The notes: a model not told the origin generated them from the sequence alone. Counted from the stretch's first letter, positions 14,007 through 29,704 are shown. The stretch: DNA of 32,000 bases from Microcystis aeruginosa NIES-843 (GCF_000010625.1 NC_010296.1:360001-392000), one strand, 5' to 3'. Made by a program: numbers and translations.

Positions 14007-14223
14007 TAGGGTCTGCTGAAAAAGTTTTTCCTGGGGGCAGGGTGTGGGGTGTGGGGTGTGGGGTGTGGGGTTTTACCGGTTTTGAGGTGGCCAATTACCT
14101 AATTTTCAGGGAAAAAGTCCCTGAATTTTCCCCCTGATCACTCCCATGCCGGGGACTTTTTGATTGACAAAAAGTCTAAAAGTCTTACCCAACAAGGTTT
14201 TTAGATTTATTCAGCCAACCCTA
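14007..14223. mobile_element. MITE-like dispersed repeat with GGGTGTG x4 heptamer core (copy A)
   Basis: About 217 bp and collinear with 22527-22751. The terminal inverted repeats are tagggtctgctg / cagccaacccta. There is an internal hairpin, aaaaagtccc..ggggactttt. No coding capacity. Confidence 0.65.
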
Positions 14224-14242
14224 TTTAGAGTTAATTCCTAGT

Positions 14243-14683
14243 ATGCGTCGTCCTGAAGAGAGTTTAATTACTATTCCCTTGCCCTTGGTCAGAATTCGTC
14301 CATCTTCTGCCCTTGAATCTAGAAAGACGGTACAATTAGCCTGTGATTTGGCTATTCTGATGTGTGATCCGGAATGGAAAATTAAATTAGGTTCAGAAAT
14401 CCTGATTTTTATCCATCGTCCGGGGGAAGATTTTTCTGATTTGTTGAAACGCTGGCGCGAAACACAAATATGTTTAGATAAAGAATATGAATGGTTAATG
14501 CCCCCCAGAGAACAACATATGTTTAGTGAAGGTGCAGAAACAATTCATCCTTTATTTGTGGTTTTTGATCAAACGGCCGAGAGAATAAAAAAGGGTTTAA
14601 GAGGGGCTTTTTTACCGATGGTTGTTCAAAGTTATCGGCCAGCTTTGATTGATGATTGCTTAGAATTAGTCGATCAAGATTAG
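14243..14683 (+). CDS. Hypothetical protein (146 aa)
   Basis: ATG ORF convergent with the radical-SAM gene. No family recognised by eye. Confidence 0.45.
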   Translation: MRRPEESLITIPLPLVRIRPSSALESRKTVQLACDLAILMCDPEWKIKLGSEILIFIHRPGEDFSDLLKRWRETQICLDKEYEWLMPPREQHMFSEGAETIHPLFVVFDQTAERIKKGLRGAFLPMVVQSYRPALIDDCLELVDQD

Positions 14684-14725
14684 CTGACTCTCTGGGGTTA
14701 GTATAAAGGGAACAGTTGACGATGG

Positions 14726-17296: not shown

Positions 17297-17411
17297 GGCA
17301 ATCTACCTCAGATATCGTCAGCAATGGGTGCTTTTCTACTATAGCAGCCAGCCTTTTCAGTGATCAGATCCTGAAGGACGCTACGCGCCCTAAAAAGAAA
17401 AAGAGAAACTA

Positions 17412-18633
17412 GTGGTCTGTCAAAGCAACAATGATGGATAATAGGAGAGGTAAATTCTCCCCAATCTGCTTAAAAATGCCAGCTAAAAAATATATCGTCT
17501 CTTTAACTGAGAAGGAACGCCAAGAACTCGAAGAATTAACCCAAAAGGGAAAATCGGCTGCCCGAAAAATCAATCATGCTCGTATCTTACTCAAGGCAGA
17601 CATTAATCAAATCAATGGGGGATGGAATGATCAAATGATTAGTCAAACATTGGACATAAGTACCAGAACCATTGAGAGAGTGAGGCAAAGATTTGTGGAA
17701 GAAGGATTAGAACAATCACTGAATCCCCGTCCGAAAAACTTGTCAAAACTCAGAAAGATAGATGGGGAAGCAGAAGCCCATTTAATCGCCTTGGCCTGTT
17801 CGGAAGCTCCCACAGGGTATAGCCGTTGGACTTTACGATTATTAGCCGAACAAATGGTCGTTTTAGAGTATGTAGAAACGATTTCCCATGAAAGCGTCAG
17901 ACAAGTCTTAAAAAAAACGAAATTAAACCTTGGCTACAAGAATGTTGGGTAATTCCCCCTCAAGCCAATGCAGAGTTTGTTGGCCAGAGGTCAGAAATTT
18001 TAGAACTCTACACTCGTCCTTATAATCCAGCTTATCCCTTAGTTTGCTTTGATGAAAGCTGCAAGCAACTCATTTCAGAAATCCGACAACCCTTAACTGC
18101 CGAACCAGGAAAACCTGAAGGTTTTGATTATCAATACGAGCGAGAAGGAGTTAGTAATTTATTCATGTTTTTTGAACCCTTAAAAGCTTGGAGACACGTT
18201 GAGGTCACTTCACTGTCACTGACCGACGTACCAGCATTGACTATGCCCAACAAATGAAATACTTAGTGGATGAACGTTATCCAGAGGCTCAAAAAATCCG
18301 AGGGGTTCAAGATAACCTTAATACTCATGTTAAAGCTTCATTATACAAAGCATTTCCCCCTCGTGAAGCTCGTCGAATACTGGACAAGTTAGAATTTTAT
18401 TACACTCCTAAGCATGGAAGTTGGTTGAATATGGCTGAAATTGAGTTAAGTGTTCTCAATAGACAATGCCTTAACCGACGCATTCCTTCCCAAGAGATTT
18501 TAATCCAAGAAGTGGAGGCTTGGGAACAACAAAGAAATCAAACTTCTTCTCCTGTTGATTGGCAGTTTACTACCGAAGATGCTCGCATCAAATTAACTCA
18601 ATTATATCTGTCAATTTTAACTTGACAAACCAG
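17412..18633 (+). mobile_element. IS630-family insertion sequence (copy 1, transposase disrupted)
   Basis: The imperfect terminal inverted repeats are gtggtctgtcaaag (left) and cttgacaaaccag (right). Each is flanked by TA (17410-11 and 18634-35), the IS630 target. Internally there are HTH and DDE transposase reading frames. Confidence 0.75.
17476..18625 (+). pseudogene. IS630-family transposase split over three frames
   Basis: Frame 1 encodes the HTH part up to an A8 run (17910-17917). The -1 frame continues as KKNEIKPWLQECWVIPP...WRHVEVT. An 11-nt extra segment (about 18210-18220, tcactgtcact) then shifts the frame before DRRTSIDYAQQMKYLVDERYP (ORF 18254..18625). Confidence 0.75.
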
Positions 18634-18661
18634 TAGAAACGGCGGCTAAGTTTTTGAGCAT
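18634..18661 (-). pseudogene. 5' remnant (9 codons, MLKNLAAVS) of a PEP-CTERM protein gene cut by IS630 copy 1
   Basis: Bases 18634-18702 are nearly identical to 26003-26073, the start codon region and 5' leader of the intact gene 25310..26029. Confidence 0.7.
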
Positions 18662-18714
18662 TTTAACCTCTCTTTTTTGCTAAATATTTTGATTGCGATC
18701 GCTATCATCGCACC

Positions 18715-18829
18715 CAGGTCAAGCAACAGCCCAACTAGGTGCCAAAGGCGGACAACAAAACAATACATACTACCCCCTCACAACTGTATCTTATGTTACA
18801 TTTTAATAAATCTTTATATTTCTCTCCCC
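18715..18829 (+). repeat. J1 junction element, copy a
   Basis: Matches the consensus GGTCAAGCAAYAGCCCAACCCAA..AAGGCGGA..ACAATACAYA..CCCCCACAAMTGTATCAAAAGCTACAATTTAATAAATNTTT..ATTCCTNTCCC. This is the most diverged copy. Confidence 0.65.
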
Positions 18830-18878
18830 AACCAGCGATTGAGATTTTGGGGTTTTTGGGGAGTTCAAGAGCTTGGAA

Positions 18879-18900
18879 TTGTACAATAAAGTTGTACAAG
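18879..18900. promoter_or_regulatory. Palindromic TGTACA operator upstream of yefM copy 1 (one mismatch)
   Basis: The sequence is ttgtacaa-taaag-ttgtacaag, with a TACAAT -10-like hexamer inside the left half-site. Confidence 0.5.
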
Positions 18901-18915
18901 TCTCCCCTAAAAATC

Positions 18916-19200
18916 ATGTTAAGCAAAGAAACCACCTACTCTCAGGCGAGAATGAATTTAGCCAGTATCTTAGATCAGGTGTGTGACGAATCTCAAATTA
19001 TCGTCATTAAGCGTCGCAATCAGAAAAATGTCGCCTTAATTGCTGAAGATGAGCTTTCCAGTTTATTAGAGTGTGTTTATTTATTGCGCTCGCCAGAAAA
19101 TGCCCAGCGCTTATTTCGCTCTTTAGCATGGACCCAGACAGAAGATGCAACTCCTCAAACATTAGCTGAATTGAAAGAGGAGTTAGGAATTGAGTCCTAA
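18916..19200 (+). CDS. yefM: Phd/YefM-family type II antitoxin (copy 1)
   Basis: 94 aa, MLSKETTYSQARMNLASILDQV..IVIKRRNQKNVALIAEDELSSLLECVYLLRSPENAQRL, typical of YefM. The ORF-track N-terminal extension from 18739 runs over J1 and is rejected. Confidence 0.85.
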   Translation: MLSKETTYSQARMNLASILDQVCDESQIIVIKRRNQKNVALIAEDELSSLLECVYLLRSPENAQRLFRSLAWTQTEDATPQTLAELKEELGIES

Positions 19201-19698
19201 AAGAGAAAATAAGCCAGATAAACCTAAAAACAATCCTATTCATAGTTATTTGCCCGTTTTTAGTCCTGATTTCAAAGCAGATTTAGCTTGGTGGTATCGG
19301 AACGAACCGAAAAAAGGCGATAAAATCTTAGACTTAGTAGCAGATATTTTGGATGCCGATCCGTTTACAGGATTGGGTAGGCCCGAACCTCTTAAGTATA
19401 TTGCTGCCGACACTTGGTCACGACGGATCGACTTAGTGGGACTTAGGCGTTTTCGGTCAGCAAAAAAGGCTCAAACCATTACGGGACAAAGGGTTAACCT
19501 CGATTTATGATTTTCCTTGATATATCTGGGTTTCAGCGATTTTGGGCTTCTCGAAGTAAATCCCAAGCGGGGATTGGAGTTGAAGCTTTTCTCGATTTGT
19601 TTTTTGTCTAAGTCCCATTAGAGCATCGTTTGGTTTATAAAGTCACAGGAAATAAGGTTTATTTTTTACAAGCTCGTTATCATTATCAATCAGGCTAA
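19190..19698 (+). pseudogene. yoeB: Txe/YoeB-family toxin interrupted by a 182-bp MITE (copy 1)
   Basis: The reading frame ...DPFTGLGRPEPLKYIAADTWSRRIDL is broken at 19435 and resumes at 19621 as EHRLVYKVTGNKVYFLQARYHYQSG*. Removing 185 nt restores a 324-nt ORF. The real start may be the TTG at 19250. Confidence 0.85.
19436..19617. mobile_element. 182-bp MITE inside yoeB copy 1
   Basis: The terminal inverted repeats are (g)tgggacttag ... ctaagtccca. It is flanked by a duplicated TTA/TA (19433-35 and 19618-20). It is absent from the otherwise identical copy 2. Confidence 0.85.
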
Positions 19699-19762
19699 AC
19701 TCAGACAAACCTATTAAGAACTGTTACAGGAGAAAGGGGACAAAGAACGTAGTACGTTCCCC

Positions 19763-19883
19763 CTCGCAGCTTGGGTTAAGCGATAGCCCAACCCAACACT
19801 AAAGGCGGATAGTAGAACAATACACACTCCCCCCCACAAATGTATCAAAAGCTACAATTTATAAATCTTTACATTCCTGTCCC
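19763..19883 (+). repeat. J1 junction element, copy b
   Basis: The sequence is ctcgcagcttgggttaagcgatagcccaacccaacactaaaggcggatagtagaacaatacacactcccccccacaaatgtatcaaaagctacaatttataaatctttacattcctgtccc. Confidence 0.7.
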
Positions 19884-19970
19884 TGATGGCTTACGCTGGT
19901 ATCTGTACTACTCCCTTGACAGCATCAGGATTTTCAGTGATCTGGGGATTTGATTGACACTCTAGCTAAA

Positions 19971-20276
19971 ATGTCAGAAAATGAGGGCATAAAAACAATT
20001 CGATGGAGTCAAGAAAAGAACAGACAACTTCAACAAGAACGAGGGCTAACATTTGAGATGGTCGTTACAGCAATACAACAAGGAAATGTCCTAGAAGATC
20101 TCGTCCATCCCAATGTTACTAAATATCCTAACCAGCGCATGATGGTTGTAAGAATTGGTAGTTATGCTTTTCTGGTTCCCTATATAGATTCGCCATCAGA
20201 ACTATTTCTCAAAACAATTATTCCCTCAAGAAAAGCGACAAAGAAATATCTTGGACTCCAGAAAAATAATGACTAA
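19971..20276 (+). CDS. brnT: BrnT-like (DUF497) type II toxin
   Basis: IRWSQEKNRQLQQERGLTFEMV and the C-terminal IIPSRKATKKY resemble the DUF497/BrnT pattern (W..K...N..KHG..F ... ISARKAT..E). Start is uncertain: TTG 19950 or ATG 19971. Confidence 0.6.
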   Translation: MSENEGIKTIRWSQEKNRQLQQERGLTFEMVVTAIQQGNVLEDLVHPNVTKYPNQRMMVVRIGSYAFLVPYIDSPSELFLKTIIPSRKATKKYLGLQKNND

Positions 20277-20550
20277 GCTTAATCAAGAAGAACAAGAAAT
20301 TCTCGATTCTTATGAAAAAGATGAGTGGCTTTCTGTCACCACACCAGAGAGAATCACCGAGATACAATCCTATGGGAAAGCTACCCTAAATAAGGATAAG
20401 AAAGTTACTTTGCGTTTGTCTTCCCTTGATCTGGATGCTCTTCAATCTAAAGCAATAGAGGAAGGTATCCCCTATCAGACACTTATCTCTAGTATCCTGC
20501 ACAAATATATCACGGGTGAGCTAGTTGAAAGTAATTTCAAAAAAGGGTAA
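20269..20550 (+). CDS. brnA: BrnA/CopG-like RHH antitoxin
   Basis: EEQEILDSYEKDEWLSV ... KKVTLRLSSLDLDALQSKAIEEGIPYQTLISSILHKYITG matches the CopG-antitoxin/BrnA pattern. Its ATG overlaps the brnT stop (ATGACTAA). Confidence 0.7.
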   Translation: MTKLNQEEQEILDSYEKDEWLSVTTPERITEIQSYGKATLNKDKKVTLRLSSLDLDALQSKAIEEGIPYQTLISSILHKYITGELVESNFKKG

Positions 20551-20557
20551 ACCAAAA

Positions 20558-20650
20558 CAACGCAACCCAACACCAAGAGACACATTCACACATACTACCC
20601 GACAACTGTATCAAAAGCTACAATTTAATAAATCTTTGCATTCCTCTCCC
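20558..20650 (+). repeat. J1 junction element, copy c (left arm shortened)
   Basis: The sequence is aacgcaacccaacaccaagagacacattcacacatactacccgacaactgtatcaaaagctacaatttaataaatctttgcattcctctccc. Confidence 0.7.
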
Positions 20651-20689
20651 TTCAGATTTTGGGGTTTTTGGGGAGTTCAAGAGCTTGGA

Positions 20690-20712
20690 CTTGTACAATA
20701 AAGTTGTACAAG
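20690..20712. promoter_or_regulatory. Perfect 9-bp inverted repeat operator upstream of yefM copy 2
   Basis: The sequence is cttgtacaa-taaag-ttgtacaag. A TACAAT hexamer is embedded and the yefM ATG is 16 nt downstream. Confidence 0.55.
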
Positions 20713-20727
20713 TCTCCCCTAAAAATC

Positions 20728-21012
20728 ATGTTAAGCAAAGAAACCACCTACTCTCAGGCGAGAATGAATTTAGCGAGTCTCTTAGATCAGGTGTGTGACG
20801 AATCCCAAATTATCGTCATTAAGCGTCGCAATCAGAAAAATGTCGCCTTAATTGCTGAAGATGAGCTTTCCAGTTTATTAGAGTGTGTTTATTTATTGCG
20901 CTCGCCAGAAAATGCCCAACGCTTATTTCGCTCTTTAGCATGGGCCCAGACAGAAGATGCAACTCCTCAAACATTAGCTGAATTGAAAGAGGAGTTAGGA
21001 ATTGAGTCCTAA
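20728..21012 (+). CDS. yefM: Phd/YefM-family type II antitoxin (copy 2)
   Basis: 94 aa, differing from copy 1 by a few residues only. Confidence 0.85.
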   Translation: MLSKETTYSQARMNLASLLDQVCDESQIIVIKRRNQKNVALIAEDELSSLLECVYLLRSPENAQRLFRSLAWAQTEDATPQTLAELKEELGIES

Positions 21013-21414
21013 AAGAGAAAATAAGCCAGATAAACCTAAAAACAATTCTATTCATAGTTATTTGCCCGTTTTTAGTCCTGATTTCAAAGCAGATTTAGCT
21101 TGGTGGTATCGGAACGAACCGAAAAAAGGCGATAAAATCTTAGACTTAGTAAGCTTAGACGCATTTAAGTTTCCTACTCGTATCCCTATCTACAAGGCGT
21201 TCCAGGATATTAAAGTGCAATGTAAGTGCGTCTAAGCTTAGCAGATATTTTGGATGCCGATCCGTTTACAGGATTGGGTAGGCCCGAACCTCTTAAGTAT
21301 ATTGCTGCCGACACTTGGTCACGACGGATCGACTTAGAGCATCGTTTGGTTTATAAAGTCACAGGAAATAAGGTTTATTTTTTACAAGCTCGTTATCATT
21401 ATCAATCAGGCTAA
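21002..21414 (+). pseudogene. yoeB: Txe/YoeB-family toxin interrupted by an 87-bp MITE (copy 2)
   Basis: The frame is broken after ..KKGDKILDLV at 21151 and resumes at 21241 (ADILDADPFTGLGRPEPLKY...RYHYQSG*). Removing 89 nt restores the same 324-nt ORF as in copy 1. Confidence 0.85.
21152..21238. mobile_element. 87-bp MITE inside yoeB copy 2
   Basis: The terminal inverted repeats are agcttagacgca(t)ttaag ... (c)ttacgtgcgtctaagct in reverse-complement sense, about 15 bp. It is flanked by a duplicated TA (21150-51 and 21239-40). Confidence 0.85.
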
Positions 21415-21506
21415 ACTCAGACAAACCTATTAAGAACTGTTACAGGAGAAAGGAGACAAAGAACGTATTTTGTCGGTTATTTTTCGGTGAAGTTGGCGGG
21501 GTTGAC

Positions 21507-22007
21507 TTATTGATTTTCATCAATTTCTTGCGCCGATCTTAATAGATATAAATACAATCTTTGATTAACAAGGAAACCTGCTTTTAAAATTAAATCATCC
21601 ATTAATGGCTGAATGGCAGCAATTAATCTTCTTCTTTTGGCAATTAATAAAATACCTAAAATTCCCATAACATTCAAGCCTAAACTCATAGCTTTCTTTC
21701 TGCCAGGGTTCTCATCTATAATGACTCTATCAGCATTTAGAGAAATAGCTAAAGCTATCGTTTCTGATTCTCCTCGGTGTAATTCCTTCTGTAAATCTTT
21801 CAATAATAAACGATCTTTTAACTCTCGCTTTTCTATCCAAGATAGGGTTTGAACTTCAATAGTGCCTGGAACTGAATAACCTAATCCTGTCATTTCTTCA
21901 TAAACAGCTACTGGAATAATAATTGTTCCATAAATATCAGGCAGCAAGTTAAGATAGCCGATAGCAGCTAAACTGGTAATAGGAGAGGTGTTACTAACAA
22001 CAATCAC
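21507..22007 (-). CDS. DUF3368-type PIN-like toxin (full length, catalytic-site variant)
   Basis: 166 aa from a GTG that overlaps the upstream stop (GTGA). It aligns over its full length by eye with the paralog at 23968..24477, but the N-terminal motif reads VVSNTSP instead of VVSDTSP. Confidence 0.7.
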   Translation of the reverse strand: MIVVSNTSPITSLAAIGYLNLLPDIYGTIIIPVAVYEEMTGLGYSVPGTIEVQTLSWIEKRELKDRLLLKDLQKELHRGESETIALAISLNADRVIIDENPGRKKAMSLGLNVMGILGILLIAKRRRLIAAIQPLMDDLILKAGFLVNQRLYLYLLRSAQEIDENQ

Positions 22008-22249
22008 AGATCGCCTAAGCTTTTTAGCGTTTCTAATTCTTGTTGCCAATCTACACTATCATAATTTACACAAATATTCCTCTTGGCGAGTTCTTGACGA
22101 AATTAAATTAAAGATAAGTTGGCAAAATCAGCCGCTTTTGCGCTACTGATATGATAATCTCTAAACATAATGATTGCCAGTTCTAGTCGCAACAGTTGCT
22201 CGTTTTTTCCTGTTGCTTGTATAATTTCGTTGGGAATCACAATAGTCAT
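22004..22249 (-). pseudogene. UPF0175-family antitoxin with premature stop (E49*)
   Basis: Collinear with the intact copy at 26745..26990. Base 22105 is A where the intact copy has C, changing GAA to TAA at codon 49. This is why no ORF appears here in the track. Confidence 0.8.
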
Positions 22250-22342
22250 TGAATTTTACGATATCGATCTGAGAGTTGCCATTATATCACAAAAAACTAC
22301 TTGTGAACAATTAATTAATAAAAATTAATGATTAGAAACACG

Positions 22343-22493
22343 GGCAAAAAAATAAACCCACTCAAGATTGAATGAAGGGGCATTTATGGTATTTTTAGAG
22401 GCAATTTAGCCGAATTTTGTGGTTTTTTTTTCGGTGGATTTAGAGGGTTTTAGTTTACGCTTCAGGGTTGAAGTTGTGGCGAAGAGGTCGAGG
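22343..22493 (-). repeat. J2 junction element copy 1, with a PEP-CTERM tail remnant
   Basis: The minus strand reads ..LFATTSTLKRKLKPSKSTEKKTTKFG* (stop at 22406-08). It is followed by the conserved hairpin and T-run. No upstream body of the gene is present. Confidence 0.7.
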
Positions 22494-22526
22494 ACGATTT
22501 GAGGAAAACTGTTAAATGTGATTAAA

Positions 22527-22751
22527 TAGGGTTTGCGGCAAAAAGTTTTTCCTGGGGGCAGGGTGTGGGGTGTAGGGTGTAGGGTGTAGGGTGTAGGGTT
22601 TTAGCGATTTTGAGGGGGTCAATTACCTAATTTTCAGGGAAAAAGTCCAGGAATTTTCCACCCGATCACTCCCAGATCTGGCACTTTTTGGTTTCCAAAA
22701 AGTCTAAAAGTCTTACCCAACAAGGTTTTTAGATTTATTCAGCAAGCCCTA
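22527..22751. mobile_element. MITE-like dispersed repeat with GGGTGTR x5 heptamer core (copy B)
   Basis: Collinear with 14007-14223. The inverted termini are tagggtttgcgg / cagcaagcccta. The heptamer number differs (5 versus 4). Confidence 0.65.
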
Positions 22752-22800
22752 AATAGAGTACAATGAAAGTTGAAGATACACCTAGTTACCTAGTTAAGCC

Positions 22801-23007
22801 ATGAAACAAGTTCTCAAAAATATTAAGGTATCGGAGATTCCTACACTAATCGCTCAGTTAGGTCTTTCTCCTGAACAAGAAGTTAATCTGACGATTGAGG
22901 AAAATTCAGAAAGTCTTATCTCAATTATGGATAAAGTCGGCAAAAAAGCTCAAGCTAAAGGTTTGACAGAAGATAAACTAACAGAACTATTAGCAGATGA
23001 ATCCTAA
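22801..23007 (+). CDS. Putative antitoxin (68 aa) of the downstream PIN toxin
   Basis: Small acidic ORF overlapping the PIN gene start by 11 nt. Family not recognised. Confidence 0.55.
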   Translation: MKQVLKNIKVSEIPTLIAQLGLSPEQEVNLTIEENSESLISIMDKVGKKAQAKGLTEDKLTELLADES

Positions 23008-23407
23008 TCGAGTTGTTATAGATACCAATGTTTTTATTAGTGCTTTACTCAATCCACTAGGAACACCCAAAAAAGTAATCAATATAGCAGTCAGTCAATT
23101 TACCATTCTCCAGAGCGAGGCAACTTATCAAGAATTGGCAACGAGAATAAGTAAAAAGAAATTTGACAAATATTTAGAAAAAGATGATAGGTTAGATTTC
23201 TTGTCGTCTCTTAAAAATAGGAGCTTATTTGTTGATATATTGCATGAAACGAGAGTGTGTTCCGATTTAGATGATAATAAATTCTTAGAATTAGCTGTAT
23301 CTGGAATGGCACAATACATCATAACAGGCGATAAGGATCTTTTAATTCTCAATACTTATCAAGGGATTCCAATTATTACTCCAGCAGAGTTTTTAGCTAT
23401 TTTCTAG
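22997..23407 (+). CDS. PIN-domain toxin (PIN_3 / TIGR00305-like)
   Basis: 136 aa with VVIDTNVFISALL at the N-terminus and ITGDKDLL near the C-terminus, the hallmark of this PIN subgroup. Confidence 0.75.
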   Translation: MNPNRVVIDTNVFISALLNPLGTPKKVINIAVSQFTILQSEATYQELATRISKKKFDKYLEKDDRLDFLSSLKNRSLFVDILHETRVCSDLDDNKFLELAVSGMAQYIITGDKDLLILNTYQGIPIITPAEFLAIF

Positions 23408-23435
23408 TGTCACTGAGAATTTTTTGAGGGAGGAA

Positions 23436-23536
23436 GGCAAAAAAATAAACCCCTTCAAGTGACTGATTGAAGGGGCATTGATGGTATTTTTAGAGGCAAT
23501 TTAGCCGACTTTTGTGGTTGCTTTTTCGGTGGATTG
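23436..23536 (-). repeat. J2 junction element copy 2
   Basis: The sequence is ggcaaaaaaataaaccccttcaag..gaaggggcattgatggtatttttagaggcaatttagccgacttttgtggttgctttttcggtggatt. Confidence 0.7.
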
Positions 23537-23544
23537 GGAGGGGT

Positions 23545-23612
23545 TTATTTGGCAACTGATAATAAAGCCTCTTCTATTGGCTTTGGTAACTCAATAGCAT
23601 AAAACCGATTCT
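23545..23612 (-). pseudogene. 3' remnant (about 22 codons) of a paralog of the 27190..27429 gene
   Basis: The minus strand reads NRFYAIELPKPIEEALLSVAK*, compared with NRFHPIELPKPIEEALLSMAN* in the intact gene. It has the same junction to J2. Confidence 0.65.
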
Positions 23613-23640
23613 TAATGTGTAAAATGTGTAAGAGGAAGAG

Positions 23641-23690
23641 ACGCAAAAAATAAACCTGCTCAACTGACTAAATGAAGGGGGTTATGATAT
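23641..23690 (-). repeat. J2 junction element copy 3 (hairpin part only)
   Basis: The sequence acgcaaaaaataaacctgctcaactgactaaatgaagggggttatgat resembles the A-run plus hairpin portion of J2. Confidence 0.45.
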
Positions 23691-23725
23691 CATTCCAATA
23701 GGAAGGGATAGATAGGGTTATAGCC

Positions 23726-23971
23726 ATGAGTATTGATATCTCCGATGAAATTCTCAGTGCAACACGCATGACTGAAGCTGAGATGAGGCAGGAAATTGCG
23801 GTCATGCTCTTTCAAAAAGAGAAGCTCACCCTTGCTCAAGCGAGTCGATTTGCAGGAATGAATCGTATTGCTTTTCAACACCTACTTGCAAGTCGTCAAA
23901 TTCCGGTACACTACGATGTCGAAGATTTTGAACAGGATATTAAGAACTTGCGGGAGATGGGAAGATTGTGA
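23726..23971 (+). CDS. UPF0175-family antitoxin
   Basis: 81 aa, MSIDISDEILSATRMTEAEMRQEIAVMLFQKEKLTLAQASRFAGMNRIAFQHLLASRQIPVHYD. It has a 4-nt overlap with the downstream PIN-like gene. Confidence 0.75.
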   Translation: MSIDISDEILSATRMTEAEMRQEIAVMLFQKEKLTLAQASRFAGMNRIAFQHLLASRQIPVHYDVEDFEQDIKNLREMGRL

Positions 23972-24477
23972 TTGTTGTCAGTGATACATCCCCTATCAAC
24001 AATCTTGCCGCCATTAATCAACTTCATCTGCTACAACAACTTTACGAAATAGTTTTTATTCCTGAAGCAGTTTATCGAGAATTAACTGAGCCTGATTTTC
24101 CAGTAGCAGGTTCAATAGAAGTCCAAACCTTAGATTGGATTCAAACTCGAACGGTAACTAACCGCACGGTGATTAAAGCTCTTGCTGATGAACTAGATAA
24201 GGGAGAAGCTGAGGCTATTGCTTTAGCACTTGAGTTGGGAGCAGATCAAGTTTTGATTGATGAGCGTCGTGGTCGTAGAATTGCTGCTAGACTTAATCTT
24301 CGATACACAGGAATTCTGGGCATTTTAGTTGAGGCGAAGAATCGAGGGTTAATCTCTGAGGTGAAACCCTTGCTAGACGCTTTGATTGATCGAGCAGGAT
24401 TTTGGGTTGCTGCACCTTTATACAGCAGTGTTTTACAGATTGTTGATGAAGAAAAAAATAAACCCCCTCAAGATTGA
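23968..24477 (+). CDS. DUF3368-type PIN-like toxin
   Basis: 169 aa with MIVVSDTSPINNLAAI and GEAEAIALA..DERRGR motifs. The last ~8 codons (EEKNKPPQD*) are encoded by J2 copy 4. Confidence 0.75.
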   Translation: MIVVSDTSPINNLAAINQLHLLQQLYEIVFIPEAVYRELTEPDFPVAGSIEVQTLDWIQTRTVTNRTVIKALADELDKGEAEAIALALELGADQVLIDERRGRRIAARLNLRYTGILGILVEAKNRGLISEVKPLLDALIDRAGFWVAAPLYSSVLQIVDEEKNKPPQD

Positions 24478-24536
24478 AGAAGGGGCATTGATGGTATTTT
24501 TAGAGGCAATTTAGCCTACTTTTGTGGTTTCTTTTT
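24451..24536 (-). repeat. J2 junction element copy 4
   Basis: The sequence is gaaaaaaataaaccccctcaagattgaagaaggggcattgatggtatttttagaggcaatttagcctacttttgtggtttcttttt. Confidence 0.7.
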
Positions 24537-24578
24537 AATGGCGATACAATGAAGTTACCACCACTTAATGAAACCTCT

Positions 24579-24887
24579 ATGAGCCTCATCCTTCCCTCTG
24601 AACTTCTGCAAACAGTACAAATGACTGAAGCTCAAATGCTCACGGAAATCGCTATCATGCTCTATCAGCAGCAACGTCTTCAATTTGAACAAGCAGCCGA
24701 ACTAACGGGAATGGCGATCGATGATTTCTACCAATTGCTAGTATCGCGTAATATCCTCACTCCACCCACGGACCCCGACGACGAACCAAAAGAACTCATC
24801 CTCACCAGTCTTCGTATTTCTCTTCAGCAAGTTAAAGAGGGCAAAGTACATCCCATCTCTGAACTGTGGGATGGCATAGATGACTGA
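24579..24887 (+). CDS. Antitoxin with a UPF0175-like N-terminal domain (partner of the RelE-like toxin)
   Basis: MSLILPSELLQTVQMTEAQMLTEIAIMLYQQQRLQFEQAAELTGM aligns with the UPF0175 proteins of this window. The upstream part of ORF 24522 lies in J2 and is rejected. Confidence 0.6.
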   Translation: MSLILPSELLQTVQMTEAQMLTEIAIMLYQQQRLQFEQAAELTGMAIDDFYQLLVSRNILTPPTDPDDEPKELILTSLRISLQQVKEGKVHPISELWDGIDD

Positions 24888-25233
24888 AGGAATCCCCTCT
24901 ATTAAAATCCTTTTCTCTGATGAATTCAAGGATCGACTTCGCATCCTCGCCAAACGCTATCGGAGCATTCGTACTGATATACAACCCCTAATTGATGACC
25001 TTCAGATAGGCAAATTCATCGGCGATAAAATACCAGGAATAGGCTACACTGTTTTTAAAGTTCGCCTCAAAAACAGCGATATTCAAAAGGGCAAAAGTAG
25101 CGGCTATCGTGTTATCTATCAACTTAAAGACAATAGTTATGTTTTGATGCTCCTCATCTATGCCAAATCTGACCAAACGGACATCCCAGCGCAGCAAATT
25201 CAAGACATCATTAATAAGTTTGACAGTTTTTAG
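24880..25233 (+). CDS. RelE/ParE-superfamily type II toxin
   Basis: 117 aa. FKVRLKNSDIQKGKSSGYRVIYQL....LMLLIYAKSDQTDI is the typical RelE/HigB-like core. Its ATG overlaps the antitoxin stop. Confidence 0.7.
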   Translation: MTEGIPSIKILFSDEFKDRLRILAKRYRSIRTDIQPLIDDLQIGKFIGDKIPGIGYTVFKVRLKNSDIQKGKSSGYRVIYQLKDNSYVLMLLIYAKSDQTDIPAQQIQDIINKFDSF

Positions 25234-25249
25234 AAGTATTAATAGATGC

Positions 25250-25284
25250 CAAAAATAAACCTCCTCAAGATTGAATTAAGGGGG
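25250..25284 (-). terminator. Rho-independent terminator of the PEP-CTERM gene (part of J2 copy 5, 25249-25350)
   Basis: The minus strand reads CCCCCTTAA-ttcaatc-TTGAGGAGG followed by TTTATTTTTGG. Confidence 0.6.
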
Positions 25285-25309
25285 CATTTATGGTATTTTT
25301 AGAAGCAAT

Positions 25310-26029
25310 TTATCCTATTTCTGTGGTTTCTTTTTCAGTGGATTGAGAGGACTTTAGTTTGCGTTTGAGGGTTGAAGCTGCGCCGAGAGTGCCGAGGGCA
25401 AGGAGACTGAGGGTTGAGGTGGGTTCAGGGACTGAGGTTGGTGCGTTGCTTCCTGTCAAAGTTCCTTGCAATCTTACTCCTTCTAGGAAGTTATCTGTTG
25501 GATCAATAATCCGAATGGTTAGTTGATTCTGTCCTTGATTGAGAAGTGCAGCCGTGGAAGAACCTGCGGCAAGAGAAAATGGTGTTAAACTACCCCAAGC
25601 GCCAGCACTTAGTGAGGCAATCTGTTGCCCATTGAGAGCCAAAATACCAGTATCATCTACCGCCCAACTCCCTGTAATAGAGACTGTCGAGAGATCGACC
25701 CCAGTCAGATCAAAGGCACGAGTATAAGTTCCAAGTCCATTAGCTGGTGTATTGGCATCTCTAGCAATCCAAGTGGAATTAGGCCCATTAGCCAACCATC
25801 CACCAAACCAATTTGGATTGCCCGGATAGACTGTTTGAGCCGGAGTAGTAGTTGAACTGCCTTGAGGGTTATCTACAGTCCAGTGAGCGTCAGATTGTGC
25901 TCCTGTTGTGATTAAGGTATTGGAAGCATCTAATCCTGTTGCTAAATTAATAGTGATCGCTTGAGCTTGAGTCGGAAAAAATAAAAAAGGAATGACTAGA
26001 GTAGAAACGGCGGCTAAGTTTTTTAGCAT
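25310..26029 (-). CDS. Secreted PEP-CTERM sorting-domain protein
   Basis: It has a signal peptide (MLKNLAAVSTLVIPFLFFPTQAQA). The C-terminal VPEPTSTLSLLALGTLGAASTLKRKLK gives the PEP motif, a TM helix and a basic cluster, followed by a 13-aa tail. Confidence 0.85.
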   Translation of the reverse strand: MLKNLAAVSTLVIPFLFFPTQAQAITINLATGLDASNTLITTGAQSDAHWTVDNPQGSSTTTPAQTVYPGNPNWFGGWLANGPNSTWIARDANTPANGLGTYTRAFDLTGVDLSTVSITGSWAVDDTGILALNGQQIASLSAGAWGSLTPFSLAAGSSTAALLNQGQNQLTIRIIDPTDNFLEGVRLQGTLTGSNAPTSVPEPTSTLSLLALGTLGAASTLKRKLKSSQSTEKETTEIG

Positions 26030-26085
26030 TCTAACCTCTCTTTTTTGCTAAATATATTGTTAAGTGCGATCGCCCTTTAGCCATT

Positions 26086-26198
26086 AGGTGAAGCAACAAC
26101 CCAACCCAACACCAAAGGCGGATAGTAGAACAATACACACTCCCCCCCCACAAATGTATCAAAAGCTACAATTTAATAAATATTTGCATTCCTATCCC
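26086..26198 (+). repeat. J1 junction element, copy d
   Basis: The sequence is aggtgaagcaacaacccaacccaacaccaaaggcggatagtagaacaatacacactccccccccacaaatgtatcaaaagctacaatttaataaatatttgcattcctatccc. Confidence 0.7.
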
Positions 26199-26237
26199 TT
26201 CAGATTTTGGGGTTTTTGGGGAGTTCAAGAGCTTGGA

Positions 26238-26260
26238 CTTGTACAATAAAGTTGTACAAG
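26238..26260. promoter_or_regulatory. Perfect inverted-repeat operator upstream of yefM copy 3
   Basis: The sequence is cttgtacaa-taaag-ttgtacaag, with TACAAT at 26242-26247. Confidence 0.55.
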
Positions 26261-26275
26261 TCTCCCCTAAAAATC

Positions 26276-26560
26276 ATGTTAAGCAAAGAAACCACCTACT
26301 CTCAGGCGAGAATGAATTTAGCCAGTATCTTAGATCAGGTGTGTGACGAATCTCAAATTATCGTCATTAAGCGTCGCAATCAGAAAAATGTGGCGTTAAT
26401 TGCTGAAGATGAGCTTTCCAGTTTATTAGAGTGTGTTTATTTATTGCGATCTCCGGAAAATGCCCAACGCTTATTTCGCTCTTTAGCATGGACCCAGACA
26501 GAAGATGCAACTCCTCAAACATTAGCTGAATTGAAAGAGGAGTTAGGAATTGAGTCCTAA
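26276..26560 (+). CDS. yefM: Phd/YefM-family type II antitoxin (copy 3)
   Basis: 94 aa, near-identical to copies 1 and 2. Confidence 0.85.
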   Translation: MLSKETTYSQARMNLASILDQVCDESQIIVIKRRNQKNVALIAEDELSSLLECVYLLRSPENAQRLFRSLAWTQTEDATPQTLAELKEELGIES

Positions 26561-26597
26561 AAGAGAAAATAAGCCAGATAAACCTAAAAACAATCCT
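26550..26597 (+). pseudogene. yoeB: 16-codon 5' stub of yoeB (copy 3)
   Basis: Homology with copies 1 and 2 stops after ..aaaaacaatcct. The sequence then jumps into the inverted PIN-like gene. Confidence 0.8.
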
Positions 26598-26748
26598 CAA
26601 TAGTACCTGGAACTGAATAACCTAATCCTGTCATTTCTTCATAAACAGCTACTGGAATAATAATTGTTCCATAAATATCATGGAGCAAGTTAAGATAGCC
26701 GATAGCAGCTAAACTGGTAATAGGAGAGGTGTTACTAACAACAATCAC
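26598..26748 (-). pseudogene. 5' fragment (about 50 codons) of the DUF3368 PIN-like toxin
   Basis: Collinear with 21857-22007 of the full-length copy. The 3' two-thirds are deleted. Confidence 0.8.
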
Positions 26749-26990
26749 AGATCACCTAAAGTTTTTAAGGTTTCTAATTCTTGTTGCCAATCTACACTAT
26801 CATAATTTACGCAAATATTCCTCTTGGCGATTTCTTGACGAAATTCAATTAAAGATAAGTTGGCAAAATCAGCCGCTTTTGCGCTACTGATATGATAATC
26901 TCTAAACATAATGATTGCCAGTTCTAGTCGCAACAGTTGCTCGTTTTTTCCTGTTGCTTGTATAATTTCGTTGGGAATCACAATAGTCAT
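26745..26990 (-). CDS. UPF0175-family antitoxin (intact copy)
   Basis: 81 aa, MTIVIPNEIIQATGKNEQLLRLELAIIMFRDYHISSAKAADFANLSLIEFRQEIAKRNICVNYD. Confidence 0.75.
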   Translation of the reverse strand: MTIVIPNEIIQATGKNEQLLRLELAIIMFRDYHISSAKAADFANLSLIEFRQEIAKRNICVNYDSVDWQQELETLKTLGDL

Positions 26991-27082
26991 TGAATTTTAC
27001 GATATTAAACTGAGAGCCATTATTGTATCACAAAAACTACTTGCGAGCAATTAATTAAGAAAAATTAATGATTGGAAACACG

Positions 27083-27189
27083 GGCAAAAAAATAAACCCA
27101 CTCAAAATTGAATGAAGGAGCATTTATAGTATTTTTAGAGGCAATTTAGCCTACTTTTGTGGTTTCTTTTTCGGTGGATTGGCAGGATT
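27083..27189 (-). repeat. J2 junction element copy 6
   Basis: The sequence is ggcaaaaaaataaacccactcaaaattgaatgaaggagcatttatagtatttttagaggcaatttagcctacttttgtggtttctttttcggtggatt. It abuts the stop of the 27190 gene. Confidence 0.7.
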
Positions 27190-27429
27190 TTAGTTGGCCA
27201 TTGATAACAATGCCTCTTCTATTGGCTTTGGTAACTCAATAGGATGAAACCGATTCACAGAAAAAGCGTAATCTTCACCACTTTCATCAATAACCCGAAT
27301 TAGACCGTTTATTTCTGCTGTCTCATCAGGGACAACGCGGTATATTTTGCCCACCTCTAGTGAAGCTTCGTAGCCTTCATTATTGAGACAAACTGCGAAC
27401 TTATTTGTTGGAGATGACTCTATTTTCAT
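27190..27429 (-). CDS. Small conserved hypothetical protein (79 aa), second gene of an unclassified two-gene module
   Basis: MKIESSPTNKFAVCLNNEGYEASLEVGKIYRVVPDETAEINGLIRVIDESGEDYAFSVNRFHPIELP. The ATG is 2 nt after the upstream stop. A decayed second copy of its 3' end lies at 23545-23612. Confidence 0.6.
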   Translation of the reverse strand: MKIESSPTNKFAVCLNNEGYEASLEVGKIYRVVPDETAEINGLIRVIDESGEDYAFSVNRFHPIELPKPIEEALLSMAN

Positions 27430-27732: not shown

Positions 27733-27768
27733 AAAAAAACAAAACCCCCTCAAGATTGATTGAAGGGG
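27733..27768 (-). terminator. Rho-independent terminator (part of J2 copy 7, 27733-27830)
   Basis: The minus strand has a 9-bp stem, CCCCTTCAA-tcaatc-TTGAGGGGG, followed by TTTTGTTTTTTTAT. Confidence 0.65.
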
Positions 27769-27793
27769 TATTTATGGTATTTTTAGAAACAAT

Positions 27794-28179
27794 TTAGCCG
27801 ACTTTTGTGGTTTCTTTTTCAGTGGATTTAGAGGGTTTTAGTTTGCGTTTGAGGGTTGAAGCTGCTCCTAGTGTGCCGAGGGTTAATAAGCTGATGACTG
27901 TAGAGGGTTCGGGTATACATTCTCCAACATCGAATGCAGGTACTAGGGCTTGTGATACATAGACTATTGAGTTAGGGTCACCCGTAAAAACTGATAAGTC
28001 ATATCCAGGAAGAAGGTTTGGAAGATCAGCTAACGTGGATGTTACATTCAAGAAGGAAGTATAAATTGTACCCGTTTTTCTCCCTATAAATAATTCATCA
28101 GAAAGAGGCACAATTTGAGGATCAATAGCATTAAAACCTGTTTGTAAAGGAACGTCGTCTGGATTACCAGATGGATTTA
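27794..28179 (-). pseudogene. C-terminal half of a PEP-CTERM protein gene split by IS630 copy 2
   Basis: Encodes ..NPSGNPDDVPLQ...CIPEPSTVISLLTLGTLGAASTLKRKLKPSKSTEKETTKVG*. The first ~16 codons of ORF 27794..28228 are IS sequence. Confidence 0.85.
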
Positions 28180-29546: not shown

Positions 29547-29592
29547 AAAATAAGCCTCAAATTTGTATGTAAGTGTGACAAAAACACAATAG

Positions 29593-29704
29593 ATCGAGCA
29601 ACAACCCAACCCAAGACACAAGGCAGACAATAGAACAATACACATTCCCCCCCCACAACTGTATTAAAAGCTACAATTTAATAAAGTCTTTATATTTTTC
29701 TCCC
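29593..29704 (+). repeat. J1 junction element, copy e
   Basis: The sequence is gatcgagcaacaacccaacccaagacacaaggcagacaatagaacaatacacattccccccccacaactgtattaaaagctacaatttaataaagtctttatatttttctccc. Confidence 0.7.

What the first reader, a model, noticed from the sequence alone, without database searches (positions are those of the whole stretch)
21507..26990. Reciprocal decay of a duplicated UPF0175-PIN (DUF3368) module: one copy keeps only the toxin, the other only the antitoxin
The segment ~20560-22340 is duplicated at ~26090-27075. In the first copy the antitoxin (22004-22249) carries a nonsense codon (GAA to TAA at codon 49, base 22105), whereas the PIN-like toxin (21507-22007) is full length. 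In the second copy the antitoxin (26745-26990) is intact. There, an ~0.8-kb deletion fuses the yoeB stub to codon ~50 of the toxin (junction 26597/26598) and removes its 3' two-thirds. The only intact antitoxin and the only full-length toxin of this pair are now 4.7 kb apart in different transcription units. This is a trans-acting split TA arrangement that could lock both segments into the genome.
Basis: seen in the sequence. Interest (0 to 1): 0.65.

Follow-up and report, generated by a model that had tools for sequence, protein, structure and literature searches.

The report
Eroding toxin-antitoxin pair with spare antitoxin
In a Microcystis toxin-antitoxin island, one copy of a predicted PIN-type module keeps its toxin but has a stop codon in its antitoxin, while an old, widespread toxin-deleted allele 4.7 kb away supplies an almost identical intact antitoxin; this is mostly ordinary gene decay, with one rare step that the spare antitoxin may make survivable.

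Summary
The sequence observation is correct. Copy A has a full-length DUF3368 toxin (21507-22007) and a UPF0175 antitoxin with GAA->TAA at codon 49 (base 22105). Copy B has an intact antitoxin (26745-26990) and a toxin cut after codon 50, fused to a yoeB stub at 26594-26597.

The proposed history is not supported. Copy B is an old, widespread toxin-deleted allele. The same junction occurs in many Microcystis genomes, where it often sits at copy A's own locus with no copy-A-type toxin in the locus. A and B differ at dS about 0.1 with dN/dS about 0.1. The window lineage probably joined the two alleles by recombination at 85-nt repeats.

The stop codon is real: it occurs in at least six independent contigs, including the complete genome AP019314.1. 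The "D-to-N" concern is moot, because N is the majority state in this subfamily (39 of 47).

In a tblastn survey, broken toxin with intact antitoxin was common (12-13 loci) and the reverse was absent (0 of 30). The reverse turned up only in targeted look-ups, and where the context is readable a spare antitoxin is present.

Trans-neutralisation by antitoxin B (2 residues different) is plausible but untested. Only B would be held hostage, not both segments. This matches the known model of toxin-first TA erosion. Interest is modest.

The parts
21507..22007 (-). Copy A toxin: full-length 166-aa DUF3368 / COG2405 PIN-like protein. GTG start overlaps the antitoxin stop by 4 nt.
   Evidence: ORF and Pfam DUF3368 at 38.9 bits. 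AF2 pLDDT 94.6; best PDB fold matches are the VapC4 PIN domain 5h4g and SSO1118 2mdt. Differs by 2 residues (N104K, D154Y) from P0001 of intact modules in other strains.
22004..22249 (-). Copy A antitoxin (UPF0175) pseudogene. TAA at 22103-22105 (codon 49) leaves a 48-aa product.
   Evidence: The stop falls at the start of the predicted recognition helix (H47-56) and removes it together with the C-terminal helix H65-78. The same allele is present in AP019314.1 and in metagenomes.
22281..22286 (-). Inferred extended -10 element (TGTGATATAAT) of the copy A operon, 31 nt upstream of the ATG.
   Evidence: Read from the sequence. The element is conserved in most Microcystis alleles compared. The consensus scan itself was uninformative. 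Inference only.
26745..26990 (-). Copy B antitoxin: intact 81-aa UPF0175 protein. Differs from the reconstructed antitoxin A only at L54I and S77T.
   Evidence: The exact protein is found in 85 index blocks, including NIES-843 (B0JN91) and several complete genomes.
26584..26748 (-). Copy B toxin stub: codons 1-50 of the DUF3368 gene, then 4 foreign codons and a stop.
   Evidence: No Pfam hit remains.
26594..26597 (.). Deletion junction between yoeB codon 15 and toxin codon 50.
   Evidence: BLAST breakpoints. The 24-nt junction string is unique in the window. It is shared by L011, L012, L013, L015, L016, L020, L026 and L031.
26276..26594 (+). Copy B yefM (intact, 94 codons, 26276-26560) plus a 15-codon yoeB stub (26550-26594).
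20728..21414 (+). Copy A yefM (intact) and yoeB. The yoeB is interrupted by an 89-nt MITE-like insertion at about 21150-21238.
   Evidence: The insertion is absent from L001/L002, where YoeB is 107 aa.
23726..24477 (+). Intact paralogous UPF0175 (81 aa) - DUF3368 (169 aa) module lying between copies A and B. It has D at toxin position 6.
24452..24536 (.). Left copy of the 85-nt repeat (3' end of a PEP-CTERM gene plus terminator hairpin) that bounds the 2.55-kb segment absent from L001/L002.
27087..27171 (.). Right copy of the same 85-nt repeat, immediately upstream of the copy B operon.

Best explanation
**Setting.** The window is a Microcystis chromosome segment. It carries a hypervariable toxin-antitoxin island between a radical-SAM gene and aspS.

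**What the two copies are.** They are two old alleles of one predicted type II module: a UPF0175/COG2886 HTH antitoxin followed by a DUF3368/COG2405 PIN-like toxin. The module lies convergent with a yefM-yoeB pair.

**Proposed order of events.**
1. Long ago, a single deletion of about 0.72 kb removed the 3' ends of yoeB and of the PIN-like toxin. This created a toxin-deleted allele (copy B type), which spread widely in Microcystis.
2. In the window lineage this allele was placed next to an intact allele (copy A type). The likely route is homologous recombination using the paralogous module and the 85-nt PEP-CTERM-tail repeats.
3. Copy A's antitoxin then acquired E49* through a G->T change at a quasi-repeat.

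**Why the third step is tolerated.** An allele with a broken antitoxin and an intact toxin is normally counter-selected. My favoured reason it survives is that antitoxin B, only 2 residues different, neutralises toxin A in trans. Reduced toxin translation may also help, because the stop codon breaks translational coupling.

**Consequence.** If that is right, toxin A holds antitoxin B hostage, but the toxin segment itself is not protected.

**Shown versus inferred.** Shown: the anatomy, the allele distribution, the age of the deletion and the reality of the stop codon. Inferred: the recombination route, toxicity, and trans-neutralisation.
For: **Ancestral intact state exists.** L001 and L002 are 98.9-99.8% identical to window 14219-23596. 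They carry an 81-aa antitoxin, a 166-aa toxin and intact YoeB, with no copy B.

**Copy B allele is old and widespread.**
- The identical junction occurs in L011-13, 15, 16, 20, 26 and 31. L014, L045 and L052 carry it with SNPs.
- In L011-13 and L020 it sits at the copy A locus, next to the PIN_3 module.

**A and B are diverged alleles.** Antitoxin dS 0.11, dN 0.011. yefM dS 0.10, dN 0.007.

**Recombination signature.** The 2.55-kb extra segment is flanked by two copies of a repeat that is single in L001. Window 23853-27195 is collinear with L012 at 97.9%.

**E49* is real and segregating.** It occurs in at least 6 contigs and on at least 3 upstream haplotypes. In AP019314.1, as in the window, it co-occurs with antitoxin B.

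**Decay order.**
- In the tblastn-ascertained sample the counts were: both intact 11; antitoxin intact with toxin broken 12-13; both broken 5; antitoxin broken with toxin intact 0.
- About 10 independent toxin-first events against 0 antitoxin-first gives roughly p = 0.02 under a neutral 1:2 target-size model (my calculation).
- All three yoeB genes in the window are broken while all three yefM genes are intact.

**A second antitoxin-first case also has a spare.** In L012 the paralog toxin is full length, its antitoxin is truncated, and an intact antitoxin copy lies 4.5 kb away.

**Literature.** The same two-step erosion, and compensation by similar TA systems, are described for Photorhabdus (PMC13617665).
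Against: **Toxicity is unproven.** No experiment shows that any COG2405/DUF3368 protein is toxic. The family is listed only as 'potential toxins' with 2-5 active-site residues retained (PMC5499597).

**The active site looks atypical.** The first canonical PIN acidic position is N in 39 of 47 relatives, including this toxin. Copy-A-type toxins also carry L at position 146, where 39 of 47 relatives have R.

**The co-occurrence test is weak.** E49* and antitoxin B can be checked together only in the window and AP019314.1. These are 99.8-99.9% identical, so they count as one lineage.

**The survey has limits.** It is small, partly non-independent, and metagenome contigs cannot show whether a spare antitoxin exists elsewhere in the genome.

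**Expression is unknown.** No expression data were available and the promoter scans were uninformative.
Confidence: 0.6

Rival explanations
1. Neutral decay of a harmless module. The DUF3368 protein is not toxic, or is no longer toxic, in this lineage. The antitoxin stop codon is then selectively neutral, antitoxin B is irrelevant to it, and both copies are simply eroding.
For: - N replaces the first catalytic Asp of canonical PIN domains in this toxin and in most relatives. Copy-A-type toxins also carry R146L at a well-conserved position.
- The family is only a predicted toxin, with a variably conserved active site.
- The island is full of decaying TA genes.
- E49* has persisted long enough to sit on several haplotypes.
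Against: - The asymmetry of decay argues that losing the antitoxin first is selected against: many independent toxin-first losses, and no antitoxin-first loss in the tblastn-ascertained sample.
- Both antitoxin-first cases that were found have a spare antitoxin nearby.
- Antitoxin and toxin N-terminus show dN/dS of about 0.1 between alleles.
- No disabling change separates toxin A from the toxins of intact modules. The exact window toxin also occurs downstream of an antitoxin ORF that is open through codon 49, in L027, where the contig cuts off its first 24 codons.
Confidence: 0.27
2. Polar silencing. The toxin start (GTG) overlaps the antitoxin stop by 4 nt and has at best a weak Shine-Dalgarno sequence. 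Terminating 96 nt upstream at codon 49 would abolish translational coupling, so too little toxin A is made to matter, with or without antitoxin B.
For: - The 4-nt GTGA overlap and the absence of a clear SD are read directly from the sequence.
- Polar effects are one of the explanations offered for antitoxin-defective, toxin-intact loci in Photorhabdus.
Against: - Nothing was measured here.
- Many cyanobacterial genes are translated without an SD (general knowledge).
- Loss of the autorepressing antitoxin would be expected to raise transcription of the operon.
- This rival is not exclusive of trans-neutralisation.
Confidence: 0.1
3. A module was duplicated within this genome, each copy then lost the complementary gene, and the resulting split pair locks both segments in place.
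For: The present-day anatomy fits this reading: one copy has the only full-length toxin and the other has the only intact antitoxin.
Against: - The copy B deletion junction is shared across many strains that lack copy A, and in those strains it sits at the copy A locus.
- Divergence between the copies is dS about 0.1. Each copy is 98-99.8% identical to its counterpart in other strains.
- Toxin genes are not protected by any TA logic, and they are lost repeatedly in the survey.
Confidence: 0.03

Closest known systems
COG2886 (UPF0175, HTH antitoxin) - COG2405 (DUF3368, PIN-like) predicted type II toxin-antitoxin pair (Makarova et al. 2009, PMC2701414; Matelska et al. 2017, PMC5499597)
   Same: - Antitoxin-then-toxin gene order with a 4-nt overlap.
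- Pfam matches to both families.
- PIN-like fold of the toxin model and helix-turn-helix in the antitoxin model.
- Enrichment of the pair in cyanobacteria.
   Different: - In this window no copy of this allele class is a complete pair.
- The first canonical acidic residue is N.
- The family itself has no experimental validation that I could find.
Two-step erosion of chromosomal TA systems, toxin first and antitoxin later (Belot et al. 2026, PMC13617665; they cite Mine et al. 2009 on ccdO157)
   Same: - Copy B, all three yoeB genes and many alleles in other strains show the toxin broken with the antitoxin intact.
- The state with a defective antitoxin and an intact toxin is rare. [quoted passage not shown]
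   Different: Here the candidate compensating antitoxin is identifiable: 2 residues different and 4.7 kb away. It belongs to a toxin-deleted allele of the same locus that was brought in by recombination.
Orphan antitoxins and anti-addiction modules (reviewed in PMC7354431; Klebsiella population survey PMC7192599)
   Same: Antitoxin B is an intact antitoxin without a cognate toxin. It is conserved at 100% protein identity in many genomes.
   Different: - Whether it protects against anything is untested.
- Its conservation could reflect recent spread or gene conversion between copies. The first 48 codons are identical in DNA between A and B.

Membership tests
Type II TA, COG2886/UPF0175 - COG2405/DUF3368 (VapBC-like) | Two small co-oriented genes, antitoxin upstream, with overlapping stop and start | tested here: met
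   In copy A, in copy B and in the intact modules of other strains, an 81-codon antitoxin is followed by a GTG start overlapping its stop by 4 nt.
Type II TA, COG2886/UPF0175 - COG2405/DUF3368 (VapBC-like) | Profile matches above the curated cut-offs | tested here: met
   DUF3368 38.9 bits against 27.3. UPF0175 58.6 bits against 27.9, and 29.7 bits for the 48-aa fragment.
Type II TA, COG2886/UPF0175 - COG2405/DUF3368 (VapBC-like) | Toxin has a PIN-like fold | tested here: met
   AF2 model pLDDT 94.6. Foldseek top hits are the VapC4 PIN domain 5h4g (E 9e-4) and SSO1118 2mdt (target-normalised TM-score 0.74), which Matelska et al. list as the COG2405 structure.
Type II TA, COG2886/UPF0175 - COG2405/DUF3368 (VapBC-like) | Canonical PIN set of conserved acidic active-site residues | tested here: inconclusive
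   E38, E51, E80, E82, D98 and D137 are conserved. The first position (residue 6) is N in 39 of 47 relatives and D in 7. The family is reported to keep 2-5 active-site residues. The three-dimensional arrangement was not inspected.
Type II TA, COG2886/UPF0175 - COG2405/DUF3368 (VapBC-like) | Toxin arrests growth and the cognate antitoxin rescues | not testable with these tools
   No experimental report was found for this family. The only indirect support is the toxin-first decay asymmetry.
Split or trans-acting TA (antitoxin B neutralises toxin A) | The non-adjacent antitoxin binds and neutralises the toxin, and its loss is deleterious | not testable with these tools
   Only proxies are available: 2 amino-acid differences between antitoxins A and B, and co-occurrence in the window and AP019314.1.
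YefM-YoeB type II TA | Phd/YefM antitoxin followed by a full-length YoeB toxin | tested here: not met
   The Pfam families match. However, all three yoeB genes in the window are disrupted, by a 185-nt insertion, an 89-nt insertion and a deletion. L001/L002 have 107-aa YoeB at each site.

The most novel reading that the evidence does not exclude
A natural, traceable case of compensated antitoxin loss. A toxin-deleted allele, imported by recombination next to an intact allele of the same locus, allowed the resident antitoxin to be knocked out. The result is a distributed TA pair in which the imported cassette's antitoxin has become essential, held hostage by the resident toxin. A further possibility is that widespread orphan antitoxins of this type act as standing 'antidotes' that let Microcystis populations dismantle or resist related modules.
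Probability: 0.35. Interest if true: 0.45.

Novelty: new member of a known kind. Interest (0 to 1): 0.3.

Why it matters
If trans-neutralisation holds, this locus is a clean natural example of how antitoxin-first loss, normally forbidden, becomes possible. It would also show how recombination between alleles can turn an orphan antitoxin into an essential gene.

The locus comes with ready-made natural controls. There are strains with the intact module, strains with only the toxin-deleted allele, and strains with both.

It would also give the first functional handle on the unvalidated COG2405/COG2886 family, which is abundant in bloom-forming cyanobacteria.

If it does not hold, the locus is simply another piece of an eroding TA island.

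Tried and rejected
**Sequencing error at 22105.** Rejected. The same 48-aa allele is present in AP019314.1 and in at least 5 metagenome contigs.

**D-to-N as a lineage-specific inactivation.** Rejected. N is the majority state.

**Recent in-situ duplication.** Rejected on divergence and on allele distribution.

**Cross-neutralisation by the paralogous antitoxin at 23726-23971.** Considered unlikely at 36% identity. Not tested.

**Sequence search of PDB for both proteins.** Nothing significant by sequence. 2mdt scored only E 0.11.

**Promoter and terminator consensus scans.** No more hits than in shuffled sequence.

**Operator palindrome covarying with antitoxin residue 54.** TTGTTCACAA in copy A against TTGCTCGCAA in copy B suggested this. 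It was dropped because other alleles do not keep a palindrome and the haplotypes are shuffled.

**Metagenome scan for the exact junction string.** Returned no hits, even though the string is present in fetched loci. The replacement protein-based scan gave 18 loci.

**Chimeric contig L026 (E49* antitoxin plus copy-B-type stub).** Not used as evidence. It could be an assembly chimera between the two near-identical copies.


Full report
**1. Checking the observation**

- The duplication is real. Window 20598-21046 matches 26146-26594 at 97.1%, and 21856-22455 matches 26597-27195 at 94.2%.
- Copy B lacks the stretch corresponding to 21047-21855 of copy A.
- The junction at 26594-26597 fuses the first 15 codons of yoeB to codon 50 of the minus-strand toxin. 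This leaves a 54-codon ORF at 26584-26748.
- Copy A's antitoxin differs from copy B's at base 22105. On the coding strand this is GAA->TAA at codon 49, giving a 48-aa ORF instead of 81 aa.
- Pfam confirms the families: DUF3368 for the 166-aa toxin, UPF0175 for both antitoxins, PhdYeFM and YoeB for the neighbouring pair.
Its toxin is 52% and its antitoxin 36% identical.

**2. Organism and ancestral state**

- The closest proteins are from Microcystis. P0001, from M. aeruginosa PCC 9809, is 99% identical to toxin A.
- Two contigs from other strains, L001 (GCA_977017405.1) and L002 (GCA_003389435.1), are collinear with window 14219-23596 at 98.9-99.8%.
- At copy A's position they carry an intact 81-aa antitoxin, a 166-aa toxin and intact 107-aa YoeB genes. 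They have no copy B.
- Relative to these strains the window has three insertions:
  - a 185-nt MITE-like element in yoeB copy 0;
  - an 89-nt MITE-like element in yoeB copy A;
  - a 2.55-kb segment (24537-27086) containing the UPF0175-RelE-like pair, a PEP-CTERM gene and copy B.
- The 2.55-kb segment is flanked by two copies of an 85-nt repeat that is single in L001.

**3. Copy B is an old, widespread allele**

- The exact 81-aa antitoxin B is on record in 85 index blocks. These include several complete Microcystis genomes and NIES-843.
- In nearly all of them it is followed by the same toxin stub. The 24-nt junction string is shared by L011, L012, L013, L015, L016, L020, L026 and L031. L014, L045 and L052 carry it with SNPs.
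- In L011-L013 and L020 this toxin-deleted allele sits next to the PIN_3 module, which is where copy A sits in L001. No copy-A-type toxin is present in those loci; each still carries a paralogous DUF3368 toxin of 163-170 aa.
- Within the window the two copies have diverged under purifying selection:

| Gene | dS | dN |
|---|---|---|
| Antitoxin | 0.11 | 0.011 |
| yefM | 0.10 | 0.007 |
| Toxin codons 1-50 | 0.055 | 0.009 |

- By contrast, each copy is 98-99.8% identical to its counterpart in other strains.
- Window 23853-27195 is collinear with L012 at 97.9%.
- The simplest history is therefore not duplication followed by reciprocal decay. An L001-like haplotype and an L012-like haplotype recombined, with the paralogous module and the 85-nt repeats serving as homology. 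This route is an inference.

**4. The stop codon**

- The 48-aa allele occurs in AP019314.1 (L016/L021). That genome is 99.8-99.9% identical to the window but differs by several indels, so it is an independent assembly.
- It also occurs in JGI and ENA metagenome contigs from several samples.
- It sits on at least three different upstream haplotypes. It is therefore a segregating natural allele, not an error.
- The mutation turns TTAATTGAATTT into TTAATTTAATTT. The same change at the same codon is seen in divergent homologues from other cyanobacteria (L041, L057, L063), where the toxin is also broken. This suggests a mutational hotspot.
- In the AF2 model of the antitoxin (pLDDT 81) the stop removes the predicted recognition helix (47-56) and the C-terminal helix (65-78).

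**5. The D-to-N concern**

- In 47 homologues, position 6 is N in 39 and D in 7. TSP at positions 7-9, E38, E51, E80, E82, D98 and D137 are conserved.
- N is therefore the normal state of this subfamily and is shared by copies A and B. It is not a recent inactivation.
- It does leave open whether these proteins are nucleases at all. Matelska et al. list COG2405 only as "potential toxins" with 2-5 active-site residues.
- The toxin model is a confident PIN-like fold: pLDDT 94.6, with top hits VapC4 5h4g and SSO1118 2mdt.

**6. Is there evidence of toxicity?**

The evidence is indirect only. I classified every related locus retrieved by tblastn from genome and metagenome collections, which is unbiased with respect to ORF integrity.

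| Antitoxin | Toxin | Loci |
|---|---|---|
| intact | intact | 11 |
| intact | broken | 12-13 |
| broken | broken | 5 |
| broken | intact | 0 |

- The broken toxins arose in about 10 independent ways: different deletions, stop codons and insertions.
- Under neutral decay with a 1:2 target size, 0 of 10 antitoxin-first events has a probability of about 0.02 (my calculation). This is suggestive, not decisive.
- The same bias appears inside the window, where three yoeB genes are broken and three yefM genes are intact.
- The state with a broken antitoxin and an intact toxin turned up only in two places:
  - the E49* allele. Where the surrounding genome can be read, in the window and AP019314.1, antitoxin B is present. 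These two count as effectively one lineage;
  - the paralogous module of L012, where another intact antitoxin copy lies 4.5 kb away.
- This pattern is what an addictive TA would produce. It matches the two-step erosion described for Photorhabdus, where the counts were toxin-only 185, both 186 and antitoxin-only 8. Those authors suggest compensation by similar TA systems, or polar effects, for the rare class.

**7. Mechanism and rivals**

- Favoured (inferred). Antitoxin B differs from antitoxin A only at L54I and S77T, and neutralises toxin A in trans.
- The stop codon also uncouples toxin translation, because the GTG start overlaps the antitoxin stop and has at best a weak Shine-Dalgarno sequence. 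This may lower toxin dosage.
- Rival 1: the toxin is harmless, given N6, R146L in copy-A-type toxins and an unvalidated family.
- Rival 2: polar silencing alone explains the tolerance.
- None of these could be separated with the tools at hand.
- Even under the favoured model, only antitoxin B is held hostage. Nothing stabilises the toxin gene, and the survey shows toxins being lost freely.

**8. Verdict**

- This is a new instance of a known kind: erosion of a predicted type II TA module in a TA-rich cyanobacterial island.
- Its one uncommon feature is antitoxin-first loss with an identifiable spare antitoxin, which makes a tidy experimental test case.
- Interest is modest, at 0.3.

Noticed in passing
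window 19190-19510, 21002-21414, 26550-26594: All three yoeB toxin genes are inactivated, each in a different way, while all three yefM antitoxins are intact. The three causes are: a 185-nt insertion with TIR TGGGACTTAGGC/GTCTAAGTCCCA and a TTAG duplication at 19437-19617; an 89-nt insertion with TIR AGCTTAGACGCA/TGCGTCTAAGCT and a TA duplication at about 21150-21238; and a deletion after codon 15. Strains L001/L002 have all three intact.
   Followed up: partly
window 22347-22431, 23442-23526, 24452-24536, 25251-25335, 27087-27171, 27735-27819: An 85-nt repeat occurs six times. It is the 3' end of PEP-CTERM protein genes (..EKETTKVG*) plus their terminator hairpin. Most copies are orphan tails that separate TA cassettes. 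Two copies flank the 2.55-kb segment absent from other strains, so the repeat looks like a recombination substrate for cassette gain and loss.
   Followed up: partly
window 22103-22105; L041 3069-3311, L057 1421-1663, L063 4001-4147: The same G->T change at antitoxin codon 49 (TTAATTGAATTT to TTAATTTAATTT, creating a perfect TTTAA-TTTAA-TTT repeat) recurs in divergent homologues from other cyanobacteria (73-88% identity). This suggests a quasi-repeat mutational hotspot.
   Followed up: partly
L012 10520-11271 and 5806-6539 (GCA_977017025.1): This is a second example of the rare state. The paralogous 169-aa DUF3368 toxin is full length but its antitoxin has lost its N-terminal half, while another intact antitoxin of the same type lies 4.5 kb away. 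In the related L013 that toxin is already broken (74 aa).
   Followed up: partly
window 22250-22345 and 26991-27086; loci L001-L060: Upstream (promoter) haplotypes and antitoxin 3' haplotypes are shuffled among strains. Codons 1-48 of antitoxins A and B are identical in DNA, and all seven differences lie in codons 49-79. This points to frequent recombination or gene conversion among these alleles. A conserved TGTGATA(C/T)AAT element lies 31 nt upstream of the ATG in most Microcystis alleles.
   Followed up: partly
window 24522-25233: A longer UPF0175 protein (121 aa) is followed by a weak RelE/ParE-like protein (117 aa; Pfam scores below the curated cut-offs). This may be the cyanobacteria-specific COG2886-RelE pairing noted by Makarova et al. 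2009.
   Followed up: no
window 18712-18810, 19769-19867, 26082-26180, 29587-29685: A roughly 99-nt repeat (ending ...CCCCCCCACAAATGTATCAAAAGCTACAATTTAATAAA) lies just upstream of several TA cassettes or yefM copies. It may be a shared promoter or leader, or a cassette boundary.
   Followed up: no
window 14007-14231 and 22527-22759: A 233-nt repeat (87% identity) links the region upstream of the 146-aa ORF at 14243-14683 with the spacer between the copy A operon and the PIN_3 module. Its nature is unknown.
   Followed up: no
L026 472-878 (JGI 3300020172): This contig combines the E49* copy-A-type antitoxin with the copy-B-type toxin stub and junction. It is either a real recombinant between the two copies or a metagenome assembly chimera.
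   Followed up: no
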